Shown here one piece after another: positions 783 through 62,900 of a DNA stretch of 64,000 nt; position 1 is the stretch's first letter; every line of letters starts with the position of its first letter. The translations under genes were made by a program, and so were the position numbers. Under the pieces are notes generated by a model. It saw only the letters and a list, made by a program, of their open reading frames with translations, was not told the origin of the DNA and did no database searches. Source of the stretch: Eledone cirrhosa (lineage: Eukaryota); NCBI GenBank assembly GCA_964016885.1, contig OZ024741.1, forward strand, positions 372,000,001-372,064,000, written 5' to 3'.

Positions 783-2687
783 CTAGTGGCTTTTCTGCTG
801 CTGCGCCTCATCAGTGAGTTTAGAAAATCGAGGTTCAACACTAGTTAATGCCAGTCTCATACACTCGTCAATTGCTGACAATTTTTTCATCTTCTTTGTG
901 CTGATTTCTACCAACTGCGAAAACCCTTTTTCGCACAAGTAGCTAGATGGGAATAAAGTCAAATATTTCAATGCAAGTTGGCTGATTTCATTAAACTACC
1001 CAATCAAGAATAAGTCGATCCATAGTTCTTTCTTTCTGCTTTCGAATATCACTTTCAGGTCTTCGTTTGAATTCAAATCCATCAACTGATGTAAGCACTG
1101 TGCAGGTAGTACATTTTTACAATTTCCAGCGTCATTTTCTGACACTAACTGCTCGATCTCGGTGAACGGGTTTTTTATCCATAAATTTCCGCTAACAATA
1201 TCTTTTTCCATCAAGTCAAAATAATCTGAAAAACTTGTGGAAAGCACATTTAAATGAGAAAGAATAATCTTCTTTAGATTGCTGGAGTCAAAATCTTCTC
1301 TCTTTTTAAGCTCTATTTCAAGGTTTGAAAGTAATGAGTAATTGTCCGATTCAATTCTTTTTATAAAGATGTTTAATTTTGATTGAAAATACGTAATAAA
1401 ATTGATGGAAGTAAAAATATCTGCATTGTTACCCTGAAGACACTTATTTAGTTTGTTCAGTTCACCAAAAATGTCTACTAAATAAGCGAGTTGCACATTC
1501 CATTCATTGGTTTCTAATACACTTGCTCTTTCATCATTCTGTTTTTTTAGAAAAACTATTATTTCTTCTCTCAGTTCAAAATCTCTCTTCATAGCATCCC
1601 CAAAAGACAGCCAACACACATCATTGTTCAATAACAATCTATTATAATTACTTCCAGAAGATTCACAAATAGATTCAAACATTCTAGAATTTTTTGCTCT
1701 TGCATGGATCAAATTGATAATTTTGACAATGTCTTTCAGCTGGTCATTTAATATTTGAGCATCTCTGTCTTTGAATTCTTTTGAACACAAAACCTCTCGA
1801 TGAATCATACAATGATTTGAAATACAATTTGGGGTCTGTTCTTTAATTTTGCAATCAAACCAGAATTTTTACCAGTCATTGCAGCTGCTCCATCTGTTGT
1901 TATTGAAGTCAACTTGCTCCAAGATACACCATTTTTTTAAAAATACTCTTCAATTTTATTGAATATGTCTTGACCTTTAGTTGTGAATATAGAGTTGTGA
2001 ATATAGACAAAACAAATACTCTTCTACTAATTCTTTTTTATCAAGGTCTACAAACCGTACATAGCAAATTAATTGAGCCTTGTTATTAATATCCGTAGTT
2101 TCGTCCACTTGCAGACCAAAACATATGCTTTTCTTTAGTGCAGTTAGTATCTGATTTTCTATATCAGAAGAAATATCAATTATCCTTCTTTTTACGGTAT
2201 TTGCTGACAATGGTAACTGGCTTAAATTTTCTTTGTCCTTAATACTGCAGCTTTCAAAAAGATTCTCTGTAGCAATTTTTATACTTGGCAGAATTAACTG
2301 TTCTCCTAATGTAAATGGTTTCTTGTTTTTACCAATCAAATGTGAAATTTCAAAAGGTGTTCTTGTTAAAGCTTTATTTCTATCTGACTTTTTACAAAAC
2401 AAGTCATACATATTAGCTTGTGATTTTTTGATGATGTTTTTCAACGAAGTAAAGTATTCCAGTGACTTGTTTCTATCATTGGTGTGATTAGTATCAAGGT
2501 GTCTTTTAAGTTTTACAGGATTTAAAGAGCTATTTGATAGAACTTTTGAACATAGCAAACACATGAGCTGATCTGGTGTATCTTTTTTAGTGTCAGCTTT
2601 TTGAAATCCATATCTAACATAATCATCACACCACTGTCTAACCTTACTGCTGGTATCTAACTTCAGCTTCTTTGCAGTAGACATCAT
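783..2687 (-). pseudogene. Frameshifted Buster-type hAT transposase (ZBED5/ZBED8-like)
   Basis: ORF pieces 1977-2687 (BED finger CLLC...LKRHLDTNH, LSANTVKRRI, GLQVDETTD), an intervening ITTDGAAAMTG segment, 996-1808 (HCMIHRE, LAYLVDIFGELNKLN) and 783-971 (FPSSYLCEKGFS dimerisation domain). At least two frameshifts. Confidence 0.92.
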
Positions 2688-3310
2688 ATCAATGTTATTT
2701 ATATACAGTTAACATTTTATGACATTAATAAACAAGAGAAATTAATTTTTTTTTATTACAAAAAGTACTTAAATTAACTTTAATTTTAGATATTTGGAAA
2801 AACTTAACTAGTTAAAAAAAAATTTTAATTTTAAAAAAATTGAAATTTCTCCATTTTAGGATGGCAAATATATTATTTAAAGTCTTATAATAATATTAAA
2901 ATATTAGGGGTTACTGAAAAAGGTGAAAATTTATAAACAACTAGAAGAAATTTTTTTCAGAGTCCAGCACTTCCTGCATATACTACTTTAGGGTCGTATT
3001 AAATATTATTGGTAATGTAAATATATTTAAATATCCGCCATAGGTGCAAAAAATGCAAATCAGCTGATAGTGTAGAAAATGAGACGATGGTATTGGAAAT
3101 TAATTCAGATAATCTTCTATCTATTTTGACTCAAAGTTAGATATAATATAAGAAGGCTTTAGGCTGCGTTAAACATATATTAGATTGGAACAAATAAAGT
3201 TTAGACAAATGTTTGTGGACATATATATTTATTGTATAAAGTAATTTCTCAATTGTGAATGCAGATGTCATCAAATGAATACATAATTGTGTGGCAAAGT
3301 TTATAGTGTA

Positions 3311-4201
3311 CTAGCATTAAAGCCCGGCGTTGCTCGGGGTCATTAAGTTACCAAAGTTAGGTTGCACCACCCATTTTATGGCAGCACTTTTTTGTCTGCC
3401 AGGCACTGGGTGAATGAATTGCAGACCTGGAAGCATGAGCTGCGCCAGCAGTGACAATTGTAGTTTCGCCTATGGATATTATCTCTGTGCAAAAAAGTGT
3501 TGAAATTTATTGTTTCACAGTACTTGCGTAACACACGCGTAGACGATGCCAGCCGAACAACAGAGCTGCAATGGAGTTGTTCTGCATGGTTGCCTGTGTG
3601 TTTTCTAAATTTAAGACAGTAGGGAAGGTTGTGATATGAGGGAGAGTTAGCTGTTGTTTCTAGCAGGTTTAGTGACCTCATAGAGGATATGTGTTTTCTA
3701 AATTTAAGACAGTAGGGAGTGGTGTGATATGGGGGGAGTTAACTGCTGTTTCTAACAGGTTTAGTGACCTCATAGAAGATATGTTTTCTAAATTTAAGAC
3801 AGTAGGGAGGGGTGTGATAGGGGGGGGGAGTTAGCTGCTGTTTCTAGCAGGTTTAGTAACCTCATAGAGGATATGTGTTTTCTAAATTTAAGACATTAGG
3901 GAGTGGTGTGAACGGACAGTATCACCATCAAGCTTGGAAAGAGAAAGTAGCAGAAAGTATGACGTTGTATAGATTTTGAATGGTAGTAGAAAGAGTTCAG
4001 CAGTTTAAATGAGAGAGAAAAATCGTAAAATATTGAGTTTTATCTATTTTTTGCGTAATTGTGGGTGAAATTGAAAAAATTATCTGCGTCAAGACGCAAT
4101 CGAAACTATTTCGAATACTGAATTGTAAATTTCAATTGAAGAAATTCTATATCGTAGATTTCTATAACGATGGAGCATGACCACATACTGAGCTTTATAG
4201 A
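3311..4201 (-). mobile_element. Non-autonomous Helitron nested in the hAT 5' region
   Basis: The minus strand starts A|TCTATAAAG and ends with the hairpin CCCGAGCAACGCCGGG followed by CTAG|T: canonical TC...CTAG ends inserted between A and T with no TSD. Confidence 0.8.
3598..3910. repeat. ~92-bp minisatellite, ~3.4 copies, inside the Helitron
   Basis: Unit (G)TGTTTTCTAAATTTAAGACAGTAGGG...GACCTCATAGAGGATAT recurs at ~3598, 3691, 3782 and 3875. Confidence 0.9.
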
Positions 4202-10412: not shown

Positions 10413-10987
10413 ACACACAAGCACACAAATAAACATACATATCTTCAGTCTCAATAGAAAATCTGAACTCTGACACCCCGGCGAGCTGGCCATATTCACT
10501 GAACCAGAACATTTCTCCCAATCCCTTTTCTCTTGACCACTATCTCTCCATTGTCATAACATTCACTATAAAGACTACAGAATAGTTTTCCAAATAAGGG
10601 CGCAAAAATGTAATAAAAACTTGTTCACGTGACAGCCAAATTTCATTTATAACCAACCAAAAAAAAGCCTTCGTGAGCCTCCTTTTTTCAAGTAAAAAGA
10701 AATTCAAACACTCATATATGAAAAAACAACCTGTGACAACCCCCCACCCCCTCTCTTATTTGAAGAACTATTGTAACGCGAACTGGCGCGAAATTTATTA
10801 TAATTATTGACAAACCAATCAAATTACTTTTCGAAAAACCTGGAATTTCGAGCCACTTTTTCCATATAAAACAACTCACCTTTTGAAAAGCAGAAGAACT
10901 GCGAAACCGGTAAAGGAACCAAATAAAAATATATATATTTTTTAAAAAAATAAGACTTCAGTTGCATTTTCGATTTCATCTCTTTTT

Positions 10988-11031
<44 letters not shown>

Positions 11032-11249
11032 ATTAAGTTAAAGTGTACATCTACATATGTATACGGAAGTATTAGTATGCATATAAATACACACATGTAT
11101 ACATCTGTACATGTACTCAGTTTTTTCACTAGACACTTTACAGTGAGTGTCAGCTAGTCTGTATGTAACCACACAGACAGACCGGGTTTTAGAGTCATAC
11201 GAGGATTCAAGGAAACACATTTCCTCTATTCTCCAGAGGGCCAGACAGG

Positions 11250-11294
11250 AATATTGGACTAGTTTCGATGTTATTACATCTCATCAGCAATATT
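11250..11294 (-). ncRNA. Minimal type I hammerhead ribozyme (array copy 1)
   Basis: Reverse complement AATATTG-CTGATGA-GATGT-AATA-ACATC-GAAA-CTAG-TC-CAATATT: intact core, 7-bp stem I, 5-bp stem II, palindromic stem III, GUC cleavage triplet. Confidence 0.9.
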
Positions 11295-11719
11295 TACCCA
11301 TCTTCCGGCTTCTCTGGAGAATTGTAAAAGCACATATCGTTATATGCTTTTTCTATGAAAATTAGTAGTGGGTAGACTAATTTGCATAGAACGTGAGTCA
11401 TTGTACGCACCGGTTCAGCGGAAACGATAAAAACAAATAACGAAACGAAATTAAATTTCGTTTCGCTTCTAACTCACTTTTGTATGACTGACGCTTAAAC
11501 AATTAAGTTAAAGTGTACATCTACATATGTATACGGAAGTATTAGTATGCATATAAATACACACATGTATACATCTGTACATGTACTCAGTTTTTTCACT
11601 AGACACTTTACAGTGAGTGTCAGCTAGTCTGTATGTAACCACACAGACGGACCGGGTTTTAGAGTCATACGAGGTTTCAAGGAAACACATTTCCTCTATT
11701 CTCCAGAGGGCCAGACAGG

Positions 11720-11764
11720 AATATTGGACTAGTTTCGATGTTATTACATCTCATCAGCAATATT
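11720..11764 (-). ncRNA. Minimal type I hammerhead ribozyme (array copy 2)
   Basis: Identical to 11250-11294, 470 bp away. Confidence 0.9.
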
Positions 11765-12189
11765 TACCCATCTTCCGGCTTCTCTGGAGAATTGTAAAAG
11801 CACATATCGTTATATGCTTTTTCTATGAAAATTAGTAGTGGGTAGACTAATTTGCATAGAACGTGAGTCATTGTACGCACCGGTTCAGCGGAAACGATAA
11901 AAACAAATAACGAAACGAAATTAAATTTCGTTTCGCTTCTAACTCACTTTTGTATGACTGACGCTTAAACAATTAAGTTAAAGTGTACATCTACATATGT
12001 ATACGGAAGTATTAGTATGCATATAAATACACACATGTATACATCTGTACATGTACTCAGTTTTTTCACTAGACACTTTACAGTGAGTGTCAGCTAGTCT
12101 GTATGTAACCACACAGACGGACCGGGTTTTAGAGTCATACGAGGTTTCAGGGAAACACATTTCCTCTATTCTCCAGAGGGCCAGACAGG

Positions 12190-12234
12190 AATATTGGACT
12201 AGTTTCGATGTTATTACATCTCATCAGCAATATT
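12190..12234 (-). ncRNA. Minimal type I hammerhead ribozyme (array copy 3)
   Basis: Identical to 11250-11294. Confidence 0.9.
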
Positions 12235-12371
12235 TACCCATCTTCCGGCTTCTCTGGAGAATTGTAAAAGCACGTTCTATGCAAATTAGTCTACCCACTA
12301 CTAATTTTCATAGAAAAAGCATATAACGATATGTGCTTTTACAATTCTCCAGAGAAGCCGGAAGATGGGTA

Positions 12372-12416
12372 AATATTGCTGATGAGATGTAATAACATCG
12401 AAACTAGTCCAATATT
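12372..12416 (+). ncRNA. Minimal type I hammerhead ribozyme (array copy 4)
   Basis: AATATTGCTGATGAGATGTAATAACATCGAAACTAGTCCAATATT; predicted cleavage after C12409. Confidence 0.9.
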
Positions 12417-12841
12417 CCTGTCTGGCCCTCTGGAGAATAGAGGAAATGTGTTTCCCTGAAACCTCGTATGACTCTAAAACCCGGTCCGTCTGTGTGGTTA
12501 CATACAGACTAGCTGACACTCACTGTAAAGTGTCTAGTGAAAAAACTGAGTACATGTACAGATGTATACATGTGTGTATTTATATGCATACTAATACTTC
12601 CGTATACATATGTAGATGTACACTTTAACTTAATTGTTTAAGCGTCAGTCATACAAAAGTGAGTTAGAAGCGAAACGAAATTTAATTTCGTTTCGTTATT
12701 TGTTTTTATAGTTTCCGCTGAACCGGTGCGTACAATGACTCACGTTCTATGCAAATTAGTCTACCCACTACTAATTTTCATAGAAAAAGCATATAACGAT
12801 ATGTGCTTTTACAATTCTCCAGAGAAGCCGGAAGATGGGTA

Positions 12842-12886
12842 AATATTGCTGATGAGATGTAATAACATCGAAACTAGTCCAATATT
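12842..12886 (+). ncRNA. Minimal type I hammerhead ribozyme (array copy 5)
   Basis: Identical to 12372-12416; predicted cleavage after C12879. Confidence 0.9.
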
Positions 12887-13172
12887 CCTGTCTGGCCCTC
12901 TGGAGAATAGAGGAAATGTGTTTCCTTGAAACCTCGTATGACTCTAAAACCCGGTCCGTCTGTGTGGTTACATACAGACTAGCTGACACTCACTGTAAAG
13001 TGTCTAGTGAAAAAACTGAGTACATGTACAGATGTATACATGTGTGTATTTATATGCATACTAATACTTCCGTATACATATGTAGATGTACACTTTAACT
13101 TAATTGTTTAAGCGTCAGTCATACAAAAGTGAGTTAGAAGCGAAACGAAATTTAATTTCGTTTCGTTATTTG

Positions 13173-13208
<36 letters not shown>

Positions 13209-13271
13209 ATGTTGATTTAAAATTGCACTATCAACAAGTGTTTTTTTTAGCCTTCATATCATGTTCTCCTG

Positions 13272-13339
13272 TTTTATCTGATGAAAACACAAATATTATT
13301 GCTTGATTGATGTTTGTTTTTGAAATGCGCATAATAAAA
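13272..13339 (+). ncRNA. Type I hammerhead ribozyme, second family
   Basis: TTTTAT-CTGATGA-AAACACAAAT...GTTTGTTTTT-GAAA-TGCGCA-TA-ATAAAA: 6-bp stem I, ~10-bp stem II with one mismatch, palindromic stem III ATGCGCAT, AUA triplet. Confidence 0.75.
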
Positions 13340-13371
13340 TATATGGAACTCCTTTAACCATCTTTTGATCT

Positions 13372-13455
<84 letters not shown>

Positions 13456-13762: not shown

Positions 13763-14272
13763 GAGAGGGGGGGGGGGGAAAGATGTGTTTGTTTGCGTGT
13801 GTGTATGTGGCCTAGTGTTAAAGATACGATCATAATGTCATGGGTTCGATTCTTCCAACAGGTGGTGTGTTGTGTTCTTCATAAAACACTTCATTTCATG
13901 TTCTTCCAGTACACTCACCTGAAAATGAATATTAGCAGTGGACCAGATGGTGGAAGAGTTTTGTACTCTCAGTCGCTTAACGCCGATAAAACTGGAATAA
14001 GCACTGGCCTTGGAAAAAAGAATATATATATGTGTATACATATATGTATACATGCACAAGTATAGCTCTTTTTACAAAACGGTTTTTTTTTTTTTCATTT
14101 CAGGTAGACGCGCTCCATCATCCACTTTTCTAAAAAATAAATCACACACAAAACGCCAGCACCAACAGTTTTGCAAGAGATGTCAACATGAATGGACCTG
14201 TTATTTTTATCTAAAGACATTTTTCCAATTCCAACTCGCCCGTCCCCTCAATCTATCTTATTTCTCATTCTT

Positions 14273-14308
14273 TCTTCTGATGAAGGACTAGCGTCCGAAA
14301 CGTTAAGA
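14273..14308 (+). ncRNA. Minimal hammerhead in a Penelope-type pseudo-LTR
   Basis: TCTT-CTGATGA-A-GGAC-TAGC-GTCC-GAAA-CG-TT-AAGA. It lies in a repeat (~14050-14340) that also follows GIY-YIG ORF relics at 29190-29475 and 46015-46250. Confidence 0.7.
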
Positions 14309-14366: not shown

Positions 14367-15774
14367 ATGTTTCTTTTATTTGCCACCGGGGCATCAAAAG
14401 TGGGACAAGTACAATGGGGGGAGTTTACAAAACAAGGCGTCCTCAATAAGGAGGAGGCAATAACAATATATAAAAATAAAATAAAATATAACAAAAAATA
14501 AAATTTATAACAAAGTCCTCAATAGAGAGGAGACGCCTTGGGGGGTCGCACCCCCCCCCCCCGAAAAAAACTGTGCAACCCTTTTCCTCGGGAGCACAGA
14601 GAAGGGGTGCTCCCTTGGTCTTTCATCTTCCTCACCTATAGTCTGATGTAGGATGAAGGCCCATTCACACGGGCCATTCTCGCCACTTTCACCCATCTTT
14701 CATAAAAACGGCTGGGGTGCAGCACCTCTCTCTCCATCCTGATCCTTCTTCCGAAATGATATCGGAAGAAACGGACCAGTTGTTGGTCAGAGAGAAAGGT
14801 GTCTGACCTCAGTCCTTTCAGACGCGTCCACCATACAACCTCTTTCGCCATGGCTATTACGCACAGAAACACCGCCTCTTCTTCGTTTTTGAAGAGGGGA
14901 GGCGGCTTGATCGTTACAATAGACTCGGTGGTCAACCGGATCGGTCCCACCCTTGACAGCAGTTGTTTGACATAGCCCCACAGATCGGCAATGCCCGAGC
15001 AGTGTACCAATGCGTGTGCAACGGTTTCCTCGTCGCACACGCATCTGGGACAGATCTTTTTCGAGGGGTCCCTACCCGGGCGCCCGTGTCTGTAGAGCCT
15101 TTCTCGAACAGGCAGAGCCCTTCTGTAGCATTGCCAGGCCAGGGACCTCTGGAAGTTATCCATGGGTCCCGGGCTGAATGTCCTACCGAACAGGTTAGCC
15201 AGTTCGTCTTCCTCCATGCCTAGGGCTTCTCCGAGGGCGTCGTCGCACCTGCTAACCACCAGCCCTCTATAGAATGACGAGGTGGATTCTCCACTGACAG
15301 CCGGGTCCGCCTGCCAGAGGGCGGTGAGCGCCTGGGCACACTCGGTGTGCCAGGCGCCCAGTTTTCTCGGTCTTTGCTTGACCCAGGATTGCAGCTCGGT
15401 GAGTGAGACGAGTCTGGGAAAGGCTCGCCTCACAAACGGGGCCCACACCGGTTGACCGGAGAGGAATACCTGAAGGTGCCGTAGCCTTAATGCGTGTTTA
15501 CGTATCATTAGCCACGGCATCCCCAGCCCTCCTTTCGAAGGGTGTTGACAGCAGATGGATCTCCTCACCATAAGAGCCCGCTTCTTCCAAAGGAATTGGA
15601 AGAGTGCGCGCTCCATTTTGGCGAGCGTTTCCCTTGGGCAAGGCACAACGGTCAGGCGGTAGTAGATGACGGACGCTATATAAGTGTTCGCCACCTCCGC
15701 CCGACCTTTCAGGGACAGTTTGCACTCGGCCCACTTCTGGGTCAGTGCAAACACCCTGTTCGTTACCTCACCCC
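14367..15774 (-). mobile_element. 5'-truncated Tx1/L1-clade LINE (younger, inner insertion)
   Basis: ORF2 C-terminus (LSLKGRAEVAN, GGLGMP, CPRC..EETVAHALVHC zinc finger), 3' UTR with AATAAA. 15-bp TSD AGATAGATAATAGAT at 14352-14366 and 15775-15789. Confidence 0.9.
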
Positions 15775-15789
15775 AGATAGATAATAGAT

Positions 15790-18781
15790 TGATTTCTTTA
15801 TTAGCCACAAGGGCGCAACAAGAAAGGGGACAATACAAAGACATGCCGGGGATTTTACATACAGTCGTGTAAAAAAATATAAAAACAAACAATTTCAACA
15901 ATCGAAATCCCCAAAAGGGGGGAGGCGCCACAAATGGGTTGTTTAATACCCCGTCGATAGAACAACCCTCAACTCAAGGAGCGTATTGTGCAAGTGCTCC
16001 TTTCTTCCTTTTGCTCTCTTCCTCAACCTACAGGCTTATAAACAGAGAAGGCCCAATCACTCGGGCCATTTTCGCTTCATTCACCCACCTTTCAGTAAAT
16101 TTACTGGGGTGCAGTGCCTCTCTTTCCACCCTGATTCTCCTAAAGTGATACTTAAAGAAGGGAATCAATTGTTGTCCGGAGAGAAAGGCATCTATCCTCA
16201 GTCCTCTCAACCACGTCCACCATATAACTTCTTTCACCATAGCCACCGTACAGAGGAATACCGCCTCTCTTTCGTTTTTGAAAGAGGCTGGCGGTTTGAT
16301 CCTTACTATGGACTCGGCAGTCATCTGGATTTGTCCCATACGCGACAGCAGTTGTTCTGCATAGTTCCACAGGTCGGTTACGCCCGGGCAGTGTACAATT
16401 GCGTGCAGAACTGTTTCAATGTCCTGCGCACATCTTGGACACGTCCTCTTGGAAGGATCCCTGCCGGGGCGTCCGTGCCTGTAGATCTTGTCACGAACAG
16501 GTAGAGCTCCTCGGTAGCACTGCCAGGCCAGGGACCTCTGGAAGTTGTCCATAGGTCCCGGGCGGAAAGTCCTACCAAACAGACTGGTGAGCTCATCGTC
16601 TTCGACGCCCAGAGTCTCTCCGAGCACGTCGTCGCCCTTGTAACGTACAATCCCTCTATAGAATGTCGAAGTGGAGTCTCCACTGATTGCTGCGCCCGCT
16701 TGCCAGAGGACTGTGAGCGCCTGAGAGCATTCAATGTGCCAGGCGCCCATCGTTTTCGGTCATTTCTTCACCCAGGAATGCAGCTCCGTTAGCGAGACGA
16801 GCTGTGGGAAATCCTGTCTCACAAACGGTGCCCACACCGGTTGGGGGTCGGTGAGGAATACCTGGAGATGCCGCAGCCTCAGCGCATGTTTGCGCATCAT
16901 CAGCCACGGCATTCCCAGCCCTCCGTTGGAAGGGTGCTGACAGCAGACGGATCTCCTCACCAGCGGAGCCTGCTTCTTCCACAGAAACTGGAAGAGCATG
17001 CGTTCCATCTTGGCGAGGTGTTCACGGGGACAAGGCACGACAGTCAAGCGGTAGTAGATGACGGACGCTATGAAAGTGTTCGCCACCTCCGCTCGACCTT
17101 TCAAGGACAGTTTGCACTCTGCCCACTTCTGAGTGAGTGCAAACACCTTGGCCGTGACCTCGTTCCAGTTTTTCTCCACCTGGAGGTCTGGACCGAACCA
17201 GACCCCGAGCAATTTCACCGGTCCGTCCGTCCAGCGTCCAACGACGCTGTCGGATGTCATCGGTTTGCCTCTCCACGTACCGAGTTGCAAACCGACAGAC
17301 TTGTCTGGGTTTAGTTTTGCTCCCGTCAGCGTTTCGTATTCTTTCAGTAAGTTGTCGATCACCCCGATTTCCGAGGTGCTCGACACCATTACCGTTACGT
17401 CGTCGGCATAAGCTGACGCCGCTTTGCGCAGTCCCGGTTCTAGGGGGGGGGGATGCCCTGCAACAACTCCAATTTCCGCAGTAGTGGCTCTAGAGTCAAT
17501 ACATTCAGAATGGAGGAGAGAGGGCATCCCTGTCGAATGGAACGCGTGATTGCGAACGGCTCCGATAGGTAGCCGTTCACCTTGACCCTCGAGCAGATGC
17601 TGGTGTGCATCGCCTCGATCCATCCTCTGAACACGGGACCGAAACCGGCCGCCTTGAGAACCGCTTCCAAGTATCGATGGTCGACCCTATCGAATGCCTT
17701 AGACTGATCCAAGTTGATCAGAGCCCCCACCGAAGCCGGGTTTACTACCCACCCTCTCTATGATGTATCGCATGAGGTGGAGGTTGTCGTGTATGGACCT
17801 GGTCGGAATTGCACACGTTTGCGCTTTCCCTACCAGGTTCTCGACGACAAGCGCCAACCTCGTCGCTAGCACCTTGGCCAAAATCTTTAACTCTGTGTTG
17901 AGCAGAGTTATGGGCCTGAAGTTGTTAATTTCGTCCCCCTTGTTCTCGTCTTTCCTGATCAGCGTTACTACGCCCTTGTCTGCAGAACTGGGAATTCTCC
18001 CGTTCTGCTGCCAATTGCAGTAGACGGCTTCGAGGACGCGAGAGAACAAGTCCGGCATGCCTATGTAAAATTCGTAGGGTAGACCATCTAGACCGGGTGA
18101 CTTGCGTTTCCCGCAGCGGCCCAGAGCGTCCCGTATCTCAGTGTCCGTGATCGGTCTTTCGCAGAACTCGGCGTCCGTGTTCGAGAGACGCGTCAGGCCG
18201 TCGAGGTATTAACTAAAGTCCATTGCCCCGTTCGGCTCACCGTCGTTCTGCTCAAACAGTCGTGCAAAGTGCCGTTGAAAGGCCGCGCACATTTGCTTGG
18301 GGTCAAGTAGCACGCGTCCGTTTTGGTCTTTCAAAGACCGAATCGTGGACTTGTTGCCACTTTTTGCCTCCGCCACTCGGGCCCAGCTGACAGCTTTCGC
18401 TCCTTCGTTTCCTAGAGCACGTGTTTTGCTTCTGACCACGCAGCCTTCGTGTTTCGCATCGAAGAACTGGTCCAGTGCCGTTCTCGACGCTAACACTCTA
18501 GCCGCGTTGCCACTTCTAAGTGCCTCCTTTACCTTGGCTACTAGTTCTCTTTCTATTCTGTTTTTCTCTAAGGCTAACTCTCTGCTATACCCTATCGATT
18601 CTATTCTAATTGCTTTCTTGAGAGAGTACCACCATCTATTGTTGACGATGGATCCCGTTAACTGTTGCTTGACTAGTCTACTTATCCGTTCACTGTAAGC
18701 TTTACGTGCCGGCAACGACACGTTCAGCTTCCAGTATCTGGGTCCTTGTCTATGTATTCTATCACGGTTGACTAAGCAGAG
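15790..18781 (-). mobile_element. 5'-truncated, frameshifted Tx1/L1-clade LINE with RT
   Basis: GPRYWKLN, NFRPITLLNTELKILAK, LDQSKAFDRVDH, IRQGCPLS, SAYADD and a CPRC zinc finger spread over ORFs 18209-18721, 17699-18058, 17440-17730, 16760-17623 and 16028-16750. TSD-like ATAAATAGATAGATA at 14346-14360 and 18782-18796. Confidence 0.92.
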
Positions 18782-19621
18782 ATAAATAGATAGATAGATA
18801 GATCGGATCTAGCTGTCGAAACGGCCGGAACTCAGCCGTCGGGGTCCTGACTCTTTTCCTAAATATATATATATATAGCGTAGAAATGTCCGTGATCTCA
18901 AGCAGACAACTGATGAAGGGTAATTATACGCCGTTCGGGCTTTCCTCTTATTTATAAATACACTTTATCCAGCAACCACACAGCCCCTGTTTCTTCTAGA
19001 AAAATCTTATCAAGTTTTGCTATGACCCGTTCTCTCTTTCTCCCTATCTACTTTGTTGCTATTAATTCTTCCCCTTTCTTTCTTTCTCTCACTTTTACCC
19101 TCCCTCTCTCTGCTAGATACCCCGCTTCTTCCGCTGTTTCTCTCGCCTATCTCTATTTCACCTACTCTTGCGATGTCAGACCTGTTTTTCTTACCGTCCA
19201 CACAGCCTCGGTCTTAAGTGCAGTAGCTGATGTTGACTTTAACTTTTTGTCTCTCTTCGGTTGCTCACATACATGTGCTTTCGGGTTCCCTTCTTCGGTA
19301 TGTTGTTTTCCATTTTTTATCGTTTTGTTTTTTTTACATTTTTTTACTTTTTTTATTCCTTTTTCTCTTCTGTTATACATTTTTTGTCTCTCTCCTTTTT
19401 TTCCCCAATAACTTCCTTTAGTTATTGACGCACTGGAGCTAGAAATATTGTCTTTAATGCGTAGAAATGTCCGTGATATCTACCAGACAACTGATGAAGA
19501 AACATTATCCGCCGTTTGTGCCTTCCTCTTACATACAGAAAAAAAGAAATATATATATATATATACGTATATATATATATATATATATAAATACGTATAT
19601 ATATATATAAATATATATATA

Positions 19622-23535: not shown

Positions 23536-23826
23536 CAGACATGGGCAACCTTTTTCGATAAGCGGGCCGCATGAGATATGGCTCATCATCAGGCGGGCCG
23601 CAAGCGTTAATTTACATTCGTGCCCACATTAAAGAAAAGGGCGGTAACTCGGGTTGTTTTGATTTGTTTCTTCAGAATTCGTACACGTTGTTTTCCTCGA
23701 TCGTAAAAATGATAGAAAGATAAATTACGACTGAAAAGTTGGGGTAAAAAAATCAGAAAGATTTCACTTAAGTGACTTAGGCGAGCCATACAGAAAGCTT
23801 CGCGGGCCGCAGGTTGCCCATGACTG
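23536..23826. mobile_element. hAT MITE
   Basis: TIRs CAGACATGGGCAACC / GGTTGCCCATGACTG and a degenerate nnnTAnnn TSD. An inverted homolog lies at 41377-41668. Confidence 0.8.
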
Positions 23827-38093: not shown

Positions 38094-38159
38094 TATTTCA
38101 TTATACATATTTCAAGGGCCACCAGAGCAAACTATGGTGCGCTTTCATCAGATAAAATA
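38094..38159 (-). ncRNA. Type I hammerhead (family shared with 53012-53072)
   Basis: Reverse complement TATTTTAT-CTGATGA-AAGcgCACCA...TGGTGgccCTT-GAAA-TATGTA-TA-ATGAAATA. Confidence 0.65.
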
Positions 38160-41376: not shown

Positions 41377-41668
41377 CAGTTATGGGCAAGCTGCGACCCG
41401 CGAAGCTTTCTGAGTGGCTCGCCTAAGTCACCTAAGTGAAATCTTTCTGATTTTTTTACCCCAACTTTTCAGTCGTAATTTATCTTTCTACCATTTTTAC
41501 GATCGAGGAAAACAACGTGTACGATTCTGAAGAAACAAATCAAAACAACCTGAGTTGCCGACTCTTTTTTTTTAATGTGAGCACGAATGTAAATTTGCGC
41601 TTGCGGCCCGCCTGATGATGAGCCATATCTCATGCGTCCTGCTTCTCGAAAAATGTTGCCTGTGCCTG
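41377..41668. mobile_element. hAT MITE (inverted homolog of 23536-23826)
   Basis: Ends CAGTTATGGGCAA / TTGCCTGTGCCTG; TSD GTATAGAG / GTCTAGAG (7/8 match, central TA). Confidence 0.82.
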
Positions 41669-47717: not shown

Positions 47718-48025
47718 CTTATAACTTATCTATCTATTGTTGATTGTTTTCTAGGATTTAATTTGTCCATAGGTTAAAGAATATTCTCATAAAAATCTTG
47801 AGTAATTATTTCGTTTCCTTTATATATTTCTTGCTTTGTACATATTGTTGTTCACTTAATCTGTCAGAGAATAACTTGCAATATTTCAAACAGGTTCTTG
47901 AACTAAAATACTTAGACACCTCTATTCTCTATCTTTTTAGAAAGTACAAAACACATTTGTGTGAACCAAAAAGCTATCTTCAAACTTTCAAAAAGTATTT
48001 CTAAGAGGCTGAAAGAAAGAAGAAA

Positions 48026-48997
48026 ATGGATAAAGTGAACGTCAACATATGTATTAGTGAAATAGAAATGATAAATAATGAAGCATTGATTGCTTATCGG
48101 CCAGTAATCATGTATCTCATAGTCAACATGATACTTGGAACAATTGGAAATAGCTTTGTAATGTATATGTACTACTACAAATATGAGAGTACGGTAACAA
48201 ATATCTTCATTATAGCACATTCTCTGAGTAATTTTCTACTGTGTATATTAGGTATACCGTTGGAAATTCTAATTTTGAGTTACCCTTATACGTTTCACAG
48301 TGATTTTGGATGCAGATCTGCCAGGTTTACTGTGACTGTATTAATACTCCATTCATCCTTGATGCTTTTCATTATAACAGCCAATAGATACATGCGTGAA
48401 TGTGAATCCTTTCAACAACAACTTTCCTTTAAAAGTTCTAAAAAATTGTTAGCATATATATTTATTTGGTCCATCATTTTAGGTTTACCAACATATTTTG
48501 TGTACGGCATACAGTTTAGAGGTATAGACGGGTGTGAAAATTTGGGACAAACGTGTTTCTTTTCCGACAGTTTAAATGATACAATCTACGCTGTAGTATA
48601 CTATTGTTCACTGTTGGGGATTGCCGCTTGCTTATTTTTTTACCACATAACACTCTACCTAGTTATTCGAAAACGTATTAAGGAAGAAGTTTTGGCAATG
48701 TTTATTTCACTTGAATCCCAATCTATTCGTAAGGAAGATGTGGAGAACTACCCAACGAAAATCAATACAACTATGTTCACCATCACTGCAATTTGGATGT
48801 TATGCGCTGCAATATATTTCATTTTACTGTTATTTAGGCTGTTTAAAAAAAATCCAAAACGCTATTCATTTCATAGTGACAGTTATAAAATACTAGCATT
48901 TAATTTTTATTTGGCCGCTTCTATTAGCCCATATGCTTACTCAATTTTCAGTCGACAGTTTCGTTACAAATTATTAACTGTTATTAAGTGTAAATAA
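48026..48997 (+). CDS. Single-exon class A (rhodopsin-like) GPCR, divergent orphan
   Basis: Intact 323-aa ORF with seven hydrophobic segments: TM1 GTIGN, TM2 NIFIIAHSLSNFLLCILGIP, TM3 Cys and ANRY, TM4 Trp/Pro, ECL2 Cys, TM7 SPYAY, helix 8 FSRQFR. Confidence 0.9.
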   Translation: MDKVNVNICISEIEMINNEALIAYRPVIMYLIVNMILGTIGNSFVMYMYYYKYESTVTNIFIIAHSLSNFLLCILGIPLEILILSYPYTFHSDFGCRSARFTVTVLILHSSLMLFIITANRYMRECESFQQQLSFKSSKKLLAYIFIWSIILGLPTYFVYGIQFRGIDGCENLGQTCFFSDSLNDTIYAVVYYCSLLGIAACLFFYHITLYLVIRKRIKEEVLAMFISLESQSIRKEDVENYPTKINTTMFTITAIWMLCAAIYFILLLFRLFKKNPKRYSFHSDSYKILAFNFYLAASISPYAYSIFSRQFRYKLLTVIKCK

Positions 48998-53011: not shown

Positions 53012-53072
53012 TATTTTATTATACATATTTCAAGGGTACCAAAATTTTGGTACGCCCTCATCAGATAAAATA
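53012..53072 (-). ncRNA. Type I hammerhead
   Basis: Reverse complement TATTTTAT-CTGATGA-GGGcGTACCAAAATTTTGGTACcCTT-GAAA-TATGTA-TA-ATAAAATA: 8-bp stem I, AUA triplet. Confidence 0.7.
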
Positions 53073-57903: not shown

Positions 57904-57939
<36 letters not shown>

Positions 57940-58140
57940 CGAAGGAGGTGTGGTAAGGAACCAGATGGACCATAACGCACCAGAGTACTCAATACTTAAG
58001 GTAGTAGAGTGGGTAATAGGAAAATGTATGACCCCGACGGCAGAGCTCAAGCCGTTTCGACGGCTATTTCTGGACTAAATTATTAAGTACGCTGAGATGC
58101 AACCGGTACTAGCAGGGAAACCTTATGCTAGTCCCGTTAA

Positions 58141-59297: not shown

Positions 59298-62200
59298 CAG
59301 TTGCATTTATCTTGCTTTATGTCCATACGAGTTATCACCAAGTCACAACCAGTGACCTCAAGAGACAACAAGGTCCGCCATGTTCAAGAAAGAACATACA
59401 TACTCACACATGCATCTTTAGTGTTTAGACTTGTGATGTACTTATATTGACAGAATCTTCCTTAGTATATGGGCAGTTCCCATTAGTACTATCTTTTGTA
59501 TTTCTCCTATACGCGGGTTTCCTGGGATTTGCGATAAGTAATCATTAGACCCCTTAGGTATCATTCCCAGAGCGCCTACAACCACTGGTATTGTTTTAGT
59601 TCTCAATTTCCACATTTTTCCAATTTCTATCTCCAGGTCCTTATACTTTCTCAATTTTTCAAATGTTTTTATAGATACATTCTTGTCTATTGGAACGGAC
59701 ATATCAATTAGCAGGCATACCCTCTTTTTAAAGTCCTTCAATATTATATCAGGTCTATTTGCATCTATTTTTCGGTCTGTTTGGATGCTAAAGTTCCACA
59801 AGATTGAGATGTGATCTTTTTCAAGTATGGGAGGTGGTTGATGCTCCCACCAATTCTTTTGATGGGGCAGTTTCTGTAGCAGTTCTTTCTTTGCAGTTAC
59901 TTTTACCTGCTTTGCTTTTTCTGTGTTTTCCATTTCAACAGTAAATGGGACTTCTGAAATTTGTAGTCCATTACTGTATCTTTGTGCATCTTTTGTAATG
60001 GAATATGATCTTTTGATGCTTTCGTGTTTCAAAACGAGTTTGATCATCCAATCATGTGATTCCCTTAGATATGTAGATAATCCAATTGTTGCAGTTTTCA
60101 ACGCAATGTCTAACTGGACTAACCCACGTCCTCCTTCTTTCCTAGGGAGATATATTCTGCCTTAGGGTGATGCATTCTGTGCATGGTTAAGAATTTTCGA
60201 ATTTTTGTATCGAGCCTACGGATCTCTGTGTTTGACTAGTTGATGACATTGTAACTGTAGGTTACTACTGGTATGGCAAGCCTGTTTATGACATCGATCC
60301 TATTCCTCGCATTCAATTCCGTTCTTAAGATTGCTCTTACTCTGCGGTAACATTTCTTCCTTATCCTTTCCCTCATTGTCGAGTGCTTGATTCCGTCTCC
60401 TTCACAAACACCTAGATATTTGTAAGTTTTTTCTTGATCAAGTTCTCTTATCACGTTCCCCCGATCAAGATTAATGTCCGAACTCTTCAGCAGCTTTCCT
60501 CTGGTGAACGTTGCTTTGGCGCATTTATCTAGTCCAAACTCCATTTTAATGTCATCACTGAACTGCTCCACAGTGGATAATAGCCCTTGCAATTGTTCAT
60601 CATTTTTTGCAAATAGTTTCAGGTCATCCATGTAGAACAAGTGATTAATGGTTTTGTCATAGACTCTATATCCATGTTTTGTTTCATTGAGCATTTTACT
60701 TAATGGTATAAGTGCGATGCAGAATAAAAGCGGTGATAAAGAGTCACCCTGAAAAATTCCACAATTAATATTAACTTCTCCAGCTTCCAGTGATTTTGTT
60801 TCACTATTCAAAAGGAGTGTCGTTTTCCATGTCTTCATACTGAATGACAAAAACCTCCTGACAACGGGGAATATTTTGAAAATCTCTAAACATTTTTCAA
60901 TCCAACTGTGTGGCAAACTATCGAATGCTTTTTTATAATTTATCCAAGCAATTGATAGATTTTTGTGTCTATTATGACAATCTTCCAGTATCATTTTGTT
61001 AACCAAAAGCTGATACTTACAGCCATATGAGCCTCGTTTGCACCCTTTCTGCTCAATGGGAAATAGGTCATTTGTTATCAGGTTGTCATATGTGTATTCA
61101 GTTAGGACTGATGTTAAAGTTTTATACATTGTGGTCAAGCAAGTTATCGGTCTGTAATTTTGGGGATTGTTTGTCTCATCATTCTTCGGAAGCAGGAATG
61201 TAATGCCGTTAACTAGCCATGATGGTATCTTTTCTGGCTCCTTAACTATTTCATTGTAAAGTTGGGCTAACAGCTCATGAGACTCTGTGAAGGCATTTAT
61301 CCAAAAATTTTGTATTTTGTCTTTTCCTGGGGATTTCCATTTGCTGGTTTTTCTTAGAGCCAAACGCAACTGTTCAACTGTTATGTTTTCCCATATTTGT
61401 TCCTCAAGGTGAGCTGTATCTTTCATTTGTCTCTCTGTCCATGGGGCATGTATGTTATGAACTTTTTCTTCGGCCCAGATCTTTTCCCAGAATTCTTGCA
61501 CTTCCTCCTTGGGTGGTATTGATTTAGCAGTTATTGTTGACTTACCAATTTTTCTGTAGAAGTTTCTTTGGTTGTTTTTGAACATATTATTGTCCTTATA
61601 GAATCTAGATCGTTTTTCAAAGCGCCTTATACGAGCAGCTTTGGCCGACACTTTTTGCTTGATTATTTCTATCAGCATGTCTATCTCACTTGTTGATTTT
61701 ATACTGTACTTTCTTTTCAATTTTCTAAGTTTAGTTTGTTTAACATGTTCACCTACTTTATAGTTTGTTAAAATTTCTATGTCAGATCGGAGAAGGTTTA
61801 TTTGGCGATTGATGTTCTCTTGCCAAGTAGATTTCTTGTGGGAATTCCTTTGTTTTTTCATCTTCACTCCACATAAGTGAGTGGTGACTTTAGCCGATGC
61901 ATAATAGAGATGATTTAAATCAGTAATGTTTAGTTTGTTTGTGATAATAATGTTTTTGAGAATTATGTTAGTCTTGTGTATTATCTTTTGGTTCTGTTTG
62001 GAGTTCTGGATCTTAGGGAGGGTGTCTCGTTGCCCCATGTCAGATTCTTTCATTTTCATCCATTCGATCATAATTTCATCCTTCAAGTTGGCAAGTTCAT
62101 TCTCATTCATTTCTTTATCATTTACGATCTCATTATTTTCATTTGGAGTTTCATACTGAGCATGCACTCCCTCCACTTTTTCGATCCTTTCTTTAATTTG

Positions 62201-62900
62201 TTCTGTTGCCAGTGATTCTGCCCCAACCCTGGGATTCGAAGTGTTACAATTTACCTCGTTTTCACTGACACATGTTTCATTTTCCCTTCGCTGACTTTGT
62301 GCTAATAGCTTGATCTGATCAATTTCTATATCAGTTAGTAACTTTTTTTTTACAATATTTCTTCGTATATTGGCTAGTTTGTTACTGTCAATATAGCCTC
62401 TGTTTTCGGGATGTTTCTTTTTCCAGTTGATATATGTCTGTTCTGTATTCGATGTATTTGATGGGTAGTATATGGCAGTGTAGAAAGCCTCAAGGACTTC
62501 TTTATTATCTTCCCTTGACCATTTTTCTCTCTTTTTCTTTGGATTTCTTGGTGGTGAGCATGGAGGGCCAACAGTAGGAGTATTCCGGTTATGGGAGGTC
62601 TCCAGCTCCGAAGTGATGGGAAGGTTTGAACCATTAGCTGATTTTTCGACCCCAGTCTGGTTCCTCTCTGAGGGACGCGGCCCTTTTTTACCCGGGTGAC
62701 GGCCGATCCGGTATGAGATTTTATCATTAGACATTTACTTTATTTTGTCGCGTTTTATCCTTAACCGCCAAGGGGTAATCATTTCGTGTTACCACTTCTA
62801 GAACGAGTGTCAACCAAGATTAGAGGGGTCGTTCTCCCCTAGAGACACGGCTATTCCCCACCGGCCGCCTTCCCGGTATTTCTTGGTCACGGGGTTTTCT
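59298..62900 (-). mobile_element. Near full-length R4/Dong-clade non-LTR retrotransposon
   Basis: ORF 60236-62734 with NYRPITCL, EQKGC, GIFQGDSLSPLLF, HLFYMDDLKLFA. A frameshifted continuation has YLPRKEGGRGL and the RLE motif ANRPDII...LIDMSVP...KLRKYKDL (59442-60101). The 3' end abuts (TAA)n. Confidence 0.9.
60236..62734 (-). pseudogene. R4/Dong reverse transcriptase ORF (832 aa, truncated before the RLE domain)
   Basis: RT motifs as above. Premature stop/frameshift near 60236; the CCHC finger expected before the RLE is missing (KELLQKL joined directly to PHQKNWWEH). Confidence 0.85.

What the first reader, a model, noticed from the sequence alone, without database searches (positions are those of the whole stretch)
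11027..13179. 470-bp tandem repeat, each unit carrying a perfect hammerhead ribozyme: candidate cephalopod retrozyme / circular-RNA element
Seen: five identical copies of AATATTG-CTGATGA-GATGT-AATA-ACATC-GAAA-CTAG-TC-CAATATT at exact 470-bp spacing (three on -, two on +), in a non-coding unit whose copies differ by only a few bases. Stem I can extend further (CTCCAGAG/CTCTGGAG, GCCGGA/TCTGGC), and the unit has another strong hairpin (CGAAACGAAAT-TTA-ATTTCGTTTCG). Established: minimal type I hammerheads with a short palindromic stem III are the hallmark of Penelope pseudo-LTRs and of animal non-LTR retrozymes; tandem copies cleave as dimers and release unit-length RNAs that circularise. Inference: transcription of either strand would release 470-nt monomers (e.g. 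+ strand cuts after 12409 and 12879). The array ends do not coincide with the cleavage site, as expected for reverse transcription rolling around a circular RNA. The near identity of copies implies a very young family.
Basis: partly seen in the sequence, partly recalled or inferred. Interest (0 to 1): 0.92.

Follow-up and report, generated by a model that had tools for sequence, protein, structure and literature searches.

The report
Ribozyme circle copied by Penelope retroelement
This is one copy of a young, non-coding 470-base repeat carrying a self-cutting ribozyme motif, spread to thousands of places in this animal genome, and its copies preserve signs that a Penelope-type jumping gene wrote them into DNA by running repeatedly around a single RNA circle, a mechanism long proposed for such elements but, in the papers searched, not yet shown.

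Summary
Observation confirmed: five identical type I hammerhead motifs, 470 bp apart, in two head-to-head arms. This is one insertion of a dispersed non-LTR retrozyme family (at least 2,302 insertions, 9,294 ribozyme cores, two subfamilies). Arms stop at one of two fixed sites about 70 nt apart and run into (TA)n. In 60 position-ordered loci, 39 pair a long end with a short end and none pair two long ends: the Penelope 'tail' rule. A very young, intact Hydra-clade Penelope element (8,078 ends) follows the same rule, shares an 11/12 motif at the same offset, and is fused to the retrozyme in one chimeric insertion. Variants fixed in every unit of one locus are A>G-biased (18 vs 2 T>C). One edited haplotype occurs only at its own locus, in both arms. 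This points to rolling reverse transcription of one edited RNA molecule, probably a circle. Not shown: self-cleavage, expression, covalent circularity, cephalopod origin. Read-through RNA from this inverted locus should mostly block its own ribozymes. The scan noted Penelope-type tandem units (tRNA-bearing, ribozyme-free) in other genomes. Known class; the mechanistic evidence and the named partner are the new part.

The parts
11027..12273 (-). Left arm, 2.65 units; 5' end at unit position 394, 3' end at position 230 (the 'short' fixed end), followed by (TA)n. Unit positions count from the predicted cleavage site (window 12410 = 1).
12271..13180 (+). Right arm, 1.94 units; 5' end at unit position 332, 3' end at about position 297-301 (the 'long' fixed end), followed by (TA)n
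12271..12273 (.). Head-to-head junction with 3-nt overlap between the arms
   Evidence: overlaps of 0-9 nt in 23 of 33 junctions
12372..12416 (+). Type I hammerhead (stem I 7 bp, stem II 5 bp, palindromic stem III); predicted cut after 12409
12842..12886 (+). Type I hammerhead; predicted cut after 12879
12190..12234 (-). Type I hammerhead; predicted cut between 12197 and 12196
11720..11764 (-). Type I hammerhead; predicted cut between 11727 and 11726
11250..11294 (-). Type I hammerhead; predicted cut between 11257 and 11256; the only one left free in a read-through fold
12410..12879 (+). One cleavage-to-cleavage monomer, 470 nt, predicted circular RNA
13106..13180 (+). 'Tail': the roughly 70-75 nt between the short and long fixed ends, the inferred two reverse-transcription start sites
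13116..13127 (+). 12-nt motif matching the autonomous Hydra-clade element at 11 of 12 positions, 10 nt after the short end in both; candidate RT recognition signal
13141..13165 (+). 11-bp hairpin with 3-nt loop just upstream of the long end; the autonomous element has an 8-bp, 3-nt-loop hairpin at a similar place
10991..11026 (.). (TA)n target, left side
13177..13210 (.). (TA)n target, right side
13207..13378 (+). Neighbouring 172-bp 3' stump of the autonomous Hydra-clade Penelope element (96% identical), with its own hammerhead (core from 13278, predicted cut after 13333), ending at that element's short end; probably a separate insertion into the same TA tract

Best explanation
The 470-bp unit is a non-coding parasite (non-LTR retrozyme) of a Hydra-clade Penelope-like element (PLE). 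Multimeric transcripts self-cleave at the hammerheads, probably as dimers, and are ligated into highly self-paired monomer circles that are sometimes A-to-I edited (inferred). The PLE protein recognises the tail region and nicks a (TA)n tract on both strands. It primes reverse transcription at two internal sites about 70 nt apart, one from each target strand, and runs round the same RNA molecule for a random number of turns. The two cDNAs are then joined at their 3' ends by microhomology. This gives the head-to-head, long-end plus short-end, 5'-truncated arrays seen here and genome-wide. Shown: structure, family, fixed ends, target, shared motif, one chimera, repeated locus-private A>G sets. 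Inferred: cleavage, ligation, editing enzyme, partner enzyme, order of steps. About 0.9 for retrozyme mobilised by PLE machinery, 0.75 for this partner, 0.75 for a covalent circle.
For: Fixed ends: of 60 position-ordered long-end loci, 33 have an inverted arm ending at the short site, 6 a micro-arm ending there, 0 a second long end. 21 of the first 39 loci also pair long with short (my count). The intact element pairs long with short in 11 of 16 loci and has the Hydra marks: DKT, CxCX5C, C-terminal GIY-YIG-like nuclease, hammerhead, (TA)n target (against the text). It is young: 150 of 150 scored hits at 95-100% identity, many with an 821-aa open frame; 8,078 long ends. Shared motif 11/12 at identical offset; 11 of 100,000 shuffles and no other of 470 rotations reach this. 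Chimera L033: the retrozyme long arm's 5' end is fused to 35 nt of PLE ORF, then to an inverted PLE arm ending at the PLE short end. Continuous template: 48 of 58 long arms cross a cleavage site; 3 of 55 5' ends lie within 5 nt of it (1.2 expected); 313 of 314 internal junctions have no indel. One molecule copied repeatedly: single-locus variants fixed in all units are 18 A>G vs 2 T>C, while unit-private variants are 14 vs 22 (Fisher p 1.7e-8). The L128 edited hairpin occurs 4 times in the genome, all at one locus and in both arms; the L129 one occurs twice, at one locus. RNA structure is kept between subfamilies: 8 pairs have compensatory changes, including hammerhead stem II A-U/U-A 23/13.
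Against: No RNA evidence either way. 7 of the 18 fixed A>G come from L129, and two of those are alleles shared with subfamily B; without L129 it is 11 vs 2 (one search list). Pooling all variants of the first locus set showed no asymmetry (15 vs 13). 32 variants are shared by only some units, with period-2, -3 or -7 patterns in long arrays (L044, L051, L068; L088), which one monomer circle cannot make; later DNA duplication or multimer templates also act. In this window T47C is shared by only the junction-proximal unit of each arm. Only 1 of 99 loci is a chimera with this PLE, and a retrozyme insertion with deletion into an older PLE copy could mimic it. Outside the 12-nt motif the unit has no significant similarity to the PLE (best E 0.045). 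One PLE locus is short+short and 4 of 16 show one end only. In vitro, 8 of 9 predicted Xenopus retrozyme dimers did not cleave, and the anole PLE used unprocessed RNA.
Confidence: 0.66

Rival explanations
1. Same element and partner, but the template is the self-cleaved linear monomer held shut by stem I; the RT jumps the nick on the same molecule each turn, so no covalent circle is needed.
For: Explains the repeated private edits equally well. The cut ends stay paired in the predicted fold. [quoted passage not shown] 2021, passage).
Against: 313 of 314 junctions are indel-free and 5' ends do not pile up at the cut (3 of 55 vs 1.2 expected). Circles are the main form in coral, mussel and axolotl retrozymes (PMC7229834).
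Confidence: 0.15
2. Arrays are copied from uncleaved linear multimeric transcripts of parent arrays and/or amplified in DNA after insertion (unequal exchange, conversion); the ribozyme is incidental to mobilisation.
For: Periodic shared variants in long arrays, and G79C in register from the 3' ends of both L056 arms. Hammerhead mutants did not affect insertion by the anole PLE. Local amplification is the model offered by Li et al. 2026.
Against: Edits on a linear multimer should differ unit to unit, yet they are identical in all units and both arms, and the haplotypes exist nowhere else in the assembly. In-situ tandem gain cannot put the same edits into the inverted arm without added conversion. 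The catalytic core is nearly invariant across subfamilies, with a compensatory stem II change.
Confidence: 0.12
3. A retrozyme as described, but driven by another PLE family of this genome, not the 821-aa Hydra element (not exclusive of the rivals above).
For: Related Hydra-like ORFs at 35-52% identity exist, as do other (TA)n-targeting two-arm families. Tail lengths differ (about 70-75 vs 89 nt). One chimera only.
Against: Motif match at the same offset, not found in other elements among 1.85 million strand-bases scanned. Chimera L033. The element is active now.
Confidence: 0.2
4. The unit is just the pseudo-LTR or 3' stump of an ORF-bearing PLE, with no life of its own.
For: Hammerhead, tail and inverted arms are PLE features; only 99 of at least 2,302 loci were read.
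Against: Units follow each other directly, up to 14.7 copies and about 31 consecutive cores at one place. No high-identity PLE ORF continues from any arm in sense (L040 has a decayed 52% relative upstream). The family has its own subfamilies and structure conservation.
Confidence: 0.03

Closest known systems
Animal non-LTR retrozymes (Cervera and de la Pena 2020, PMC7229834; parts 2-4 of 6 read, supplement not opened)
   Same: Short non-coding tandem unit with one type I hammerhead, G+C under 50%, highly self-paired; weak palindromic stem III like axolotl HHR_Amex1; coexists with PLEs.
   Different: 470 nt is above their 150-450 range. They showed cleavage and circles but only proposed PLEs as the likely mobiliser; the text read describes no fixed double ends, inverted arms, named partner or edited copies. 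Here the reverse holds: genomic mechanism evidence, no RNA data.
Li, Clavereau and Pollet 2026 (bioRxiv 10.64898/2026.07.22.740005; parts 1-3 of 5 read, supplements closed)
   Same: Retrozymes as non-autonomous PLE dependents; unit sizes 51-972 bp.
   Different: Their evidence is co-occurrence and pLTR homology, mainly in vertebrates; they suggest local amplification and call the mechanism open. This unit is not homologous to its candidate partner's pLTR beyond 12 nt, and its arrays look made at insertion.
Poseidon PAc of Anolis (Frangieh et al. 2024, PMC11167929; parts 1-2 of 4 read)
   Same: Two internal RT start sites defining the tail; nicking and extension of both strands of AT-rich DNA; predicted dimer.
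   Different: An autonomous linear RNA; tail classically 30-40 nt versus about 70 here; hammerhead cleavage not needed in vitro; no circular or trans template tested in the text read.
Hydra-clade PLEs and non-autonomous Chlamys elements such as MRC1 (Craig et al. 2021, bioRxiv 10.1101/2021.04.23.441226; passages and section 11 read)
   Same: The partner has DKT, CxCX5C, a hammerhead and (TA)n insertion. [quoted passage not shown]
   Different: The partner unit is about 3.7 kb versus under 3 kb. MRC1-type elements resemble their partner at the 3' end and belong to a clade that mostly lacks hammerheads.

Membership tests
Non-LTR retrozyme | Tandem units of a few hundred bp, each with a type I hammerhead | tested here: met
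   470 bp is above the 150-450 of PMC7229834 and inside the 51-972 of Li et al.
Non-LTR retrozyme | No protein coding; G+C under 50% | tested here: met
   longest stop-free frame 80 aa, G+C 36.8%
Non-LTR retrozyme | Highly self-paired unit RNA with the hammerhead able to form | tested here: met
   z -9.8; eight pairs with compensatory changes (few independent events, two related subfamilies)
Non-LTR retrozyme | Dispersed multi-locus family without LTR architecture | tested here: met
   PBS and PPT were not searched for separately
Non-LTR retrozyme | Self-cleavage of monomer or dimer transcripts | not testable with these tools
   needs in vitro transcription
Non-LTR retrozyme | Expressed as linear and circular unit-length RNA | tested here: inconclusive
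   no RNA-labelled run listed; indirect support from locus-fixed A>G
Non-LTR retrozyme | Target-site duplication longer than 4 bp where present | tested here: inconclusive
   insertions lie in (TA)n, so duplications cannot be read
PLE-type insertion signature | Two fixed 3' ends (tail), 5' truncation, inverted second arm, AT-rich target | tested here: met
   39 of 60 long+short, 0 long+long
Pseudo-LTR of an autonomous PLE | Contiguous in sense with an RT + GIY-YIG ORF and homologous to that element's end | tested here: not met
   99 loci read; best similarity to the partner E 0.045
Hydra-clade PLE (partner element) | DKT, CxCX5C linker, C-terminal GIY-YIG-type nuclease, hammerhead, (TA)n target | tested here: met
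   motifs at aa 144, 680, 700-716; ends; criteria. Pfam gave no match.
Hydra-clade PLE (partner element) | Phylogenetic placement with reference Hydra RTs; absence of the CCHH motif | not tested
   no named reference sequences at hand; homologues are unnamed, 30-38% identical

The most novel reading that the evidence does not exclude
A Penelope-type RT carries out twin-primed, rolling-circle target-primed reverse transcription on a ribozyme-made circular RNA, both primers reading the same circle, and ADAR edits act as a natural molecular barcode that proves it in the genome. A 12-nt motif is the address by which an unrelated RNA circle recruits the enzyme. The partial-tandem pseudo-LTRs of the autonomous element may arise the same way, from its own unit-length circle: private variants are shared by all pLTR copies of a locus in L144, L148, L151 and L155, which is suggestive only.
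Probability: 0.45. Interest if true: 0.86.

Novelty: new member of a known kind. Interest (0 to 1): 0.74.

Why it matters
How animal retrozymes get back into the genome has been a proposal (PLE enzyme, circular RNA template) resting on co-occurrence. This family supplies a named, currently active partner with intact ORFs, mapped start sites, a candidate recognition motif, a chimeric insertion and single-molecule barcodes. That turns the proposal into a defined in vitro experiment. It also bears on why PLE insertions are partial tandems with an inverted arm and a tail on one end only, and on what PLE hammerheads are for. An RT that writes multimers from a small RNA circle into (TA)n is also of interest as an RNA-templated insertion tool.

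Tried and rejected
Expression: no RNA holder listed (6 runs, 3 studies, none on record as RNA). Four contig runs laid on 12271-13180 show presence and subfamily variants only; no conclusion drawn. Rfam gathering search: nothing; the miRNA-family hits are hairpin artefacts far below cut-off. The ADAR idea was first rejected on pooled variants (15 vs 13) and revived only after fixed and unit-private variants were separated; that split was chosen after seeing the clusters. The old PLE fragments in the window as partner: the family found is diverged (61-74%) and mostly broken, rejected. Further chimeras: L038 and L121 proved to be inverted duplications of flanking DNA, and L047 is ambiguous, so none was counted. 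Related PLE ORFs near arrays (L040, L084, L115, L131) are 35-52% relatives, with no copy of the motif found. The short-end count used a pattern that fits mainly subfamily B and double-counts reverse hits; only the 778 forward matches are usable (roughly 1,500 ends). A>G bias in the partner's ORF: none (14 A>G vs 21 T>C). Pfam did not recognise the PLE proteins. A sequence look-up in earlier findings was blank. Literature searches for prior description: retrozyme+hammerhead+octopus, retrozyme+ADAR+editing+circular (63), non-autonomous+Penelope-like+hammerhead+tandem+rolling circle (64), hammerhead ribozyme+cephalopod+tandem repeat (65), Penelope+pLTR+circular RNA+template+inverted (74). None listed a paper on this family or on edited or twin-ended retrozyme insertions; subscription papers and supplements were not covered.

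Full report
Observation. They lie in two arrays of period 470, 11027-12273 and 12271-13180. Numbering the unit from the predicted cut (window 12410 = 1), the left arm reads 394 to 230 over 2.65 units on the minus strand and the right arm 332 to about 301 over 1.94 units on the plus strand. The arms overlap by 3 nt, differ from one monomer at 7 of 2,157 positions, and both run into (TA)n. Rfam gives Hammerhead_HH9 at E 2.5e-5 but below its gathering score. The unit is non-coding, 36.8% G+C and strongly self-paired (z -9.8).

Family. A genome search gave 644 candidate regions, 39 scored, 380 matches. Exact patterns count 2,302 long-end junctions and 9,294 ribozyme cores, reversed controls 0; both are lower bounds. 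I read the window, 38 best-matching loci and 60 loci taken in position order from the first 61 junctions listed (one left out because it was already held; two of the 60, L119 and L120, are duplicates of one region). Two subfamilies appear, about 97-98% and 86-89% identical to the window unit. Between them the catalytic core is kept, stem II shows a compensatory A-U/U-A change (23/13 of 36), the cut triplet is GUC or GUU, and 8 of 145 predicted pairs show two-sided changes; these are few independent events. The tail's first 48 nt differ at 2 positions, against 26 of 205 and 17 of 131 in the flanking parts.

Insertion signature. Nearly all arms end at position 226-231 (short) or about 297-301 (long), then (TA)n; 5' ends are scattered. 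Of the 60 ordered loci, 33 have an inverted arm ending at the short site, 6 a micro-arm ending there, 3 a second arm ending elsewhere, 6 run off the fetched stretch, 10 have TA alone and 2 other DNA at the 5' end; none has two long ends. This is the Penelope pattern of inverted arm plus tail on one end (Craig et al. 2021, passages), explained in the anole element by two internal RT start sites and extension of both target strands (PMC11167929).

Partner. In L033 the retrozyme long arm is joined at its 5' end to 35 nt of a PLE ORF (nt 170-204, AAA overlap), then to an inverted PLE arm from ORF nt 894 to that element's short end. That PLE is very young: all 150 scored of 41,157 first-look candidates were 95-100% identical, many with an 821-aa open frame, and it has 8,078 long ends. 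Sixteen copies show a 3.7-kb unit with a hammerhead 44 nt before a short end, an 89-nt tail and (TA)n flanks; 11 pair long with short, 1 is short+short, 4 show one end. DKT and CxCX5C motifs match the Hydra clade definition; no tree was built. The two tails share an 11/12 motif starting 10 nt after the short end (11 of 100,000 shuffles; no other of 470 rotations), and both carry a 3-nt-loop hairpin shortly before the long end; otherwise they are unrelated. A 172-bp stump of the same PLE lies beside this array at 13207-13378. One chimera in 99 loci is thin, and insertion with deletion into an older copy is not excluded.

Template. 48 of 58 long arms cross at least one cleavage site, lengths fall off roughly exponentially (mean about 850 nt) and 5' ends are not concentrated at the cut; 313 of 314 junctions have no indel. 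Both arms of a locus share one haplotype, with exceptions such as L067. Among variants seen in one locus only, those fixed in every unit are 18 A>G to 2 T>C on the ribozyme strand, 14 of 18 after T or A; unit-private ones are 14 to 22 (93 loci). L128 carries six A>G changes in a 112-nt stretch, identical in three long-arm units and the short arm, and that haplotype occurs only there in the genome. L129's occurs only at its locus, and L104 repeats three A>G changes in six units. Strand-biased clustered A>G as a mark of ADAR editing, and heavy editing in coleoid cephalopods, are recalled knowledge. The simplest reading is one edited RNA molecule copied several times from both primers. Against this: L129 supplies 7 of the 18 (11 vs 2 without it); the test was defined after seeing the clusters; pooled variants showed no bias; 32 partly shared variants and periodic patterns in long arrays need later DNA rearrangement or multimer templates; a parent locus could be missing from this assembly. 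Edits cannot separate a ligated circle from a cleaved monomer held shut by stem I; junction fidelity and published circles in three other animals (PMC7229834) favour the circle.

This locus. It carries no fixed edit of its own and shares its haplotype with L031, L032 and L037. A read-through transcript of either strand folds arm against arm and buries four of five ribozymes, so it is more likely a product than a source of circles. There is no expression evidence. Host group is unproven (mollusc lead only).

Comparison and novelty. It meets every retrozyme feature testable here and fails the pseudo-LTR test; cleavage and circular RNA are untested. Cervera and de la Pena 2020 and the 2020 review (PMC7761336, passages) name PLEs as likely mobilisers. 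Li et al. 2026 add co-occurrence and pLTR homology and leave the mechanism open. Searches listed no description of this family or of twin-ended or edit-barcoded retrozyme insertions; unseen supplements and subscription papers could hold one. Earlier scan notes describe PLE-type ends on ribozyme-free tandem units in other genomes; they were not checked and are not counted as support. Verdict: a new member of a known class with unusually direct genomic evidence on an open mechanism; interest 0.74.

Noticed in passing
window 14277-14300 (+), 38110-38151 (-), 53028-53064 (-), 23553-23592 (-), 41612-41651 (+): Further hammerhead-core matches, some with good stem II, probably ends of other Penelope-like families.
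   Followed up: no
window 57939-58019 (-); L138, L113, L090, L106, L056, L156: Abundant small two-arm palindromic element in (TA)n with its own short and long ends about 80 nt apart; 40 hits among fetched loci; looks like another PLE-dependent family. A second such family gave 18 hits (L038-type).
   Followed up: partly
L121:3325-3430; L038:3127-3187 and 3644-3704: The retrozyme's 5' end is joined to a short inverted duplicate (36 and 61 bp) of the flanking DNA across a TA tract, suggesting fold-back priming of the second target strand.
   Followed up: partly
window 12150 and 12456: T47C is present only in the junction-proximal unit of each arm, at mirror positions; arm-to-arm conversion or a mixed template; unexplained.
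   Followed up: partly
L044, L051, L056, L068, L088: Long arrays show shared variants with period 2, 3 or 7, hinting at dimer or multimer templates or later duplication.
   Followed up: partly
G000:C1:5738326-5752334: About 31 consecutive ribozyme cores on one strand, roughly 14 kb; only its end was fetched (L088).
   Followed up: no
window 48005-48997 (+): Single 330-aa open frame of a rhodopsin-family GPCR (7tm_1, E 5e-18); top Atlas cluster 'chemosensory receptor A', mostly Mollusca.
   Followed up: partly
window 60236-62734 (-), 14636-18808 (-), 996-2708 (-): An 832-aa RT frame of a LINE-type element, broken LINE-type pieces, and a BED-finger DNA-transposase-like remnant.
   Followed up: no
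window ~10600-10900 and ~14090-14105: Short GC-richer stretch with E2F-like words upstream of the array and a splice-acceptor-like run downstream (read; motifs recalled); the array may lie in an intron near a promoter.
   Followed up: no
run X1 laid on window 12271-13180: Very high contig depth (up to about 340,000) dominated by subfamily B letters; run type unknown, so no conclusion.
   Followed up: no
L153: PLE locus with two short ends and matching outer flanks, probably a later inverted duplication.
   Followed up: no
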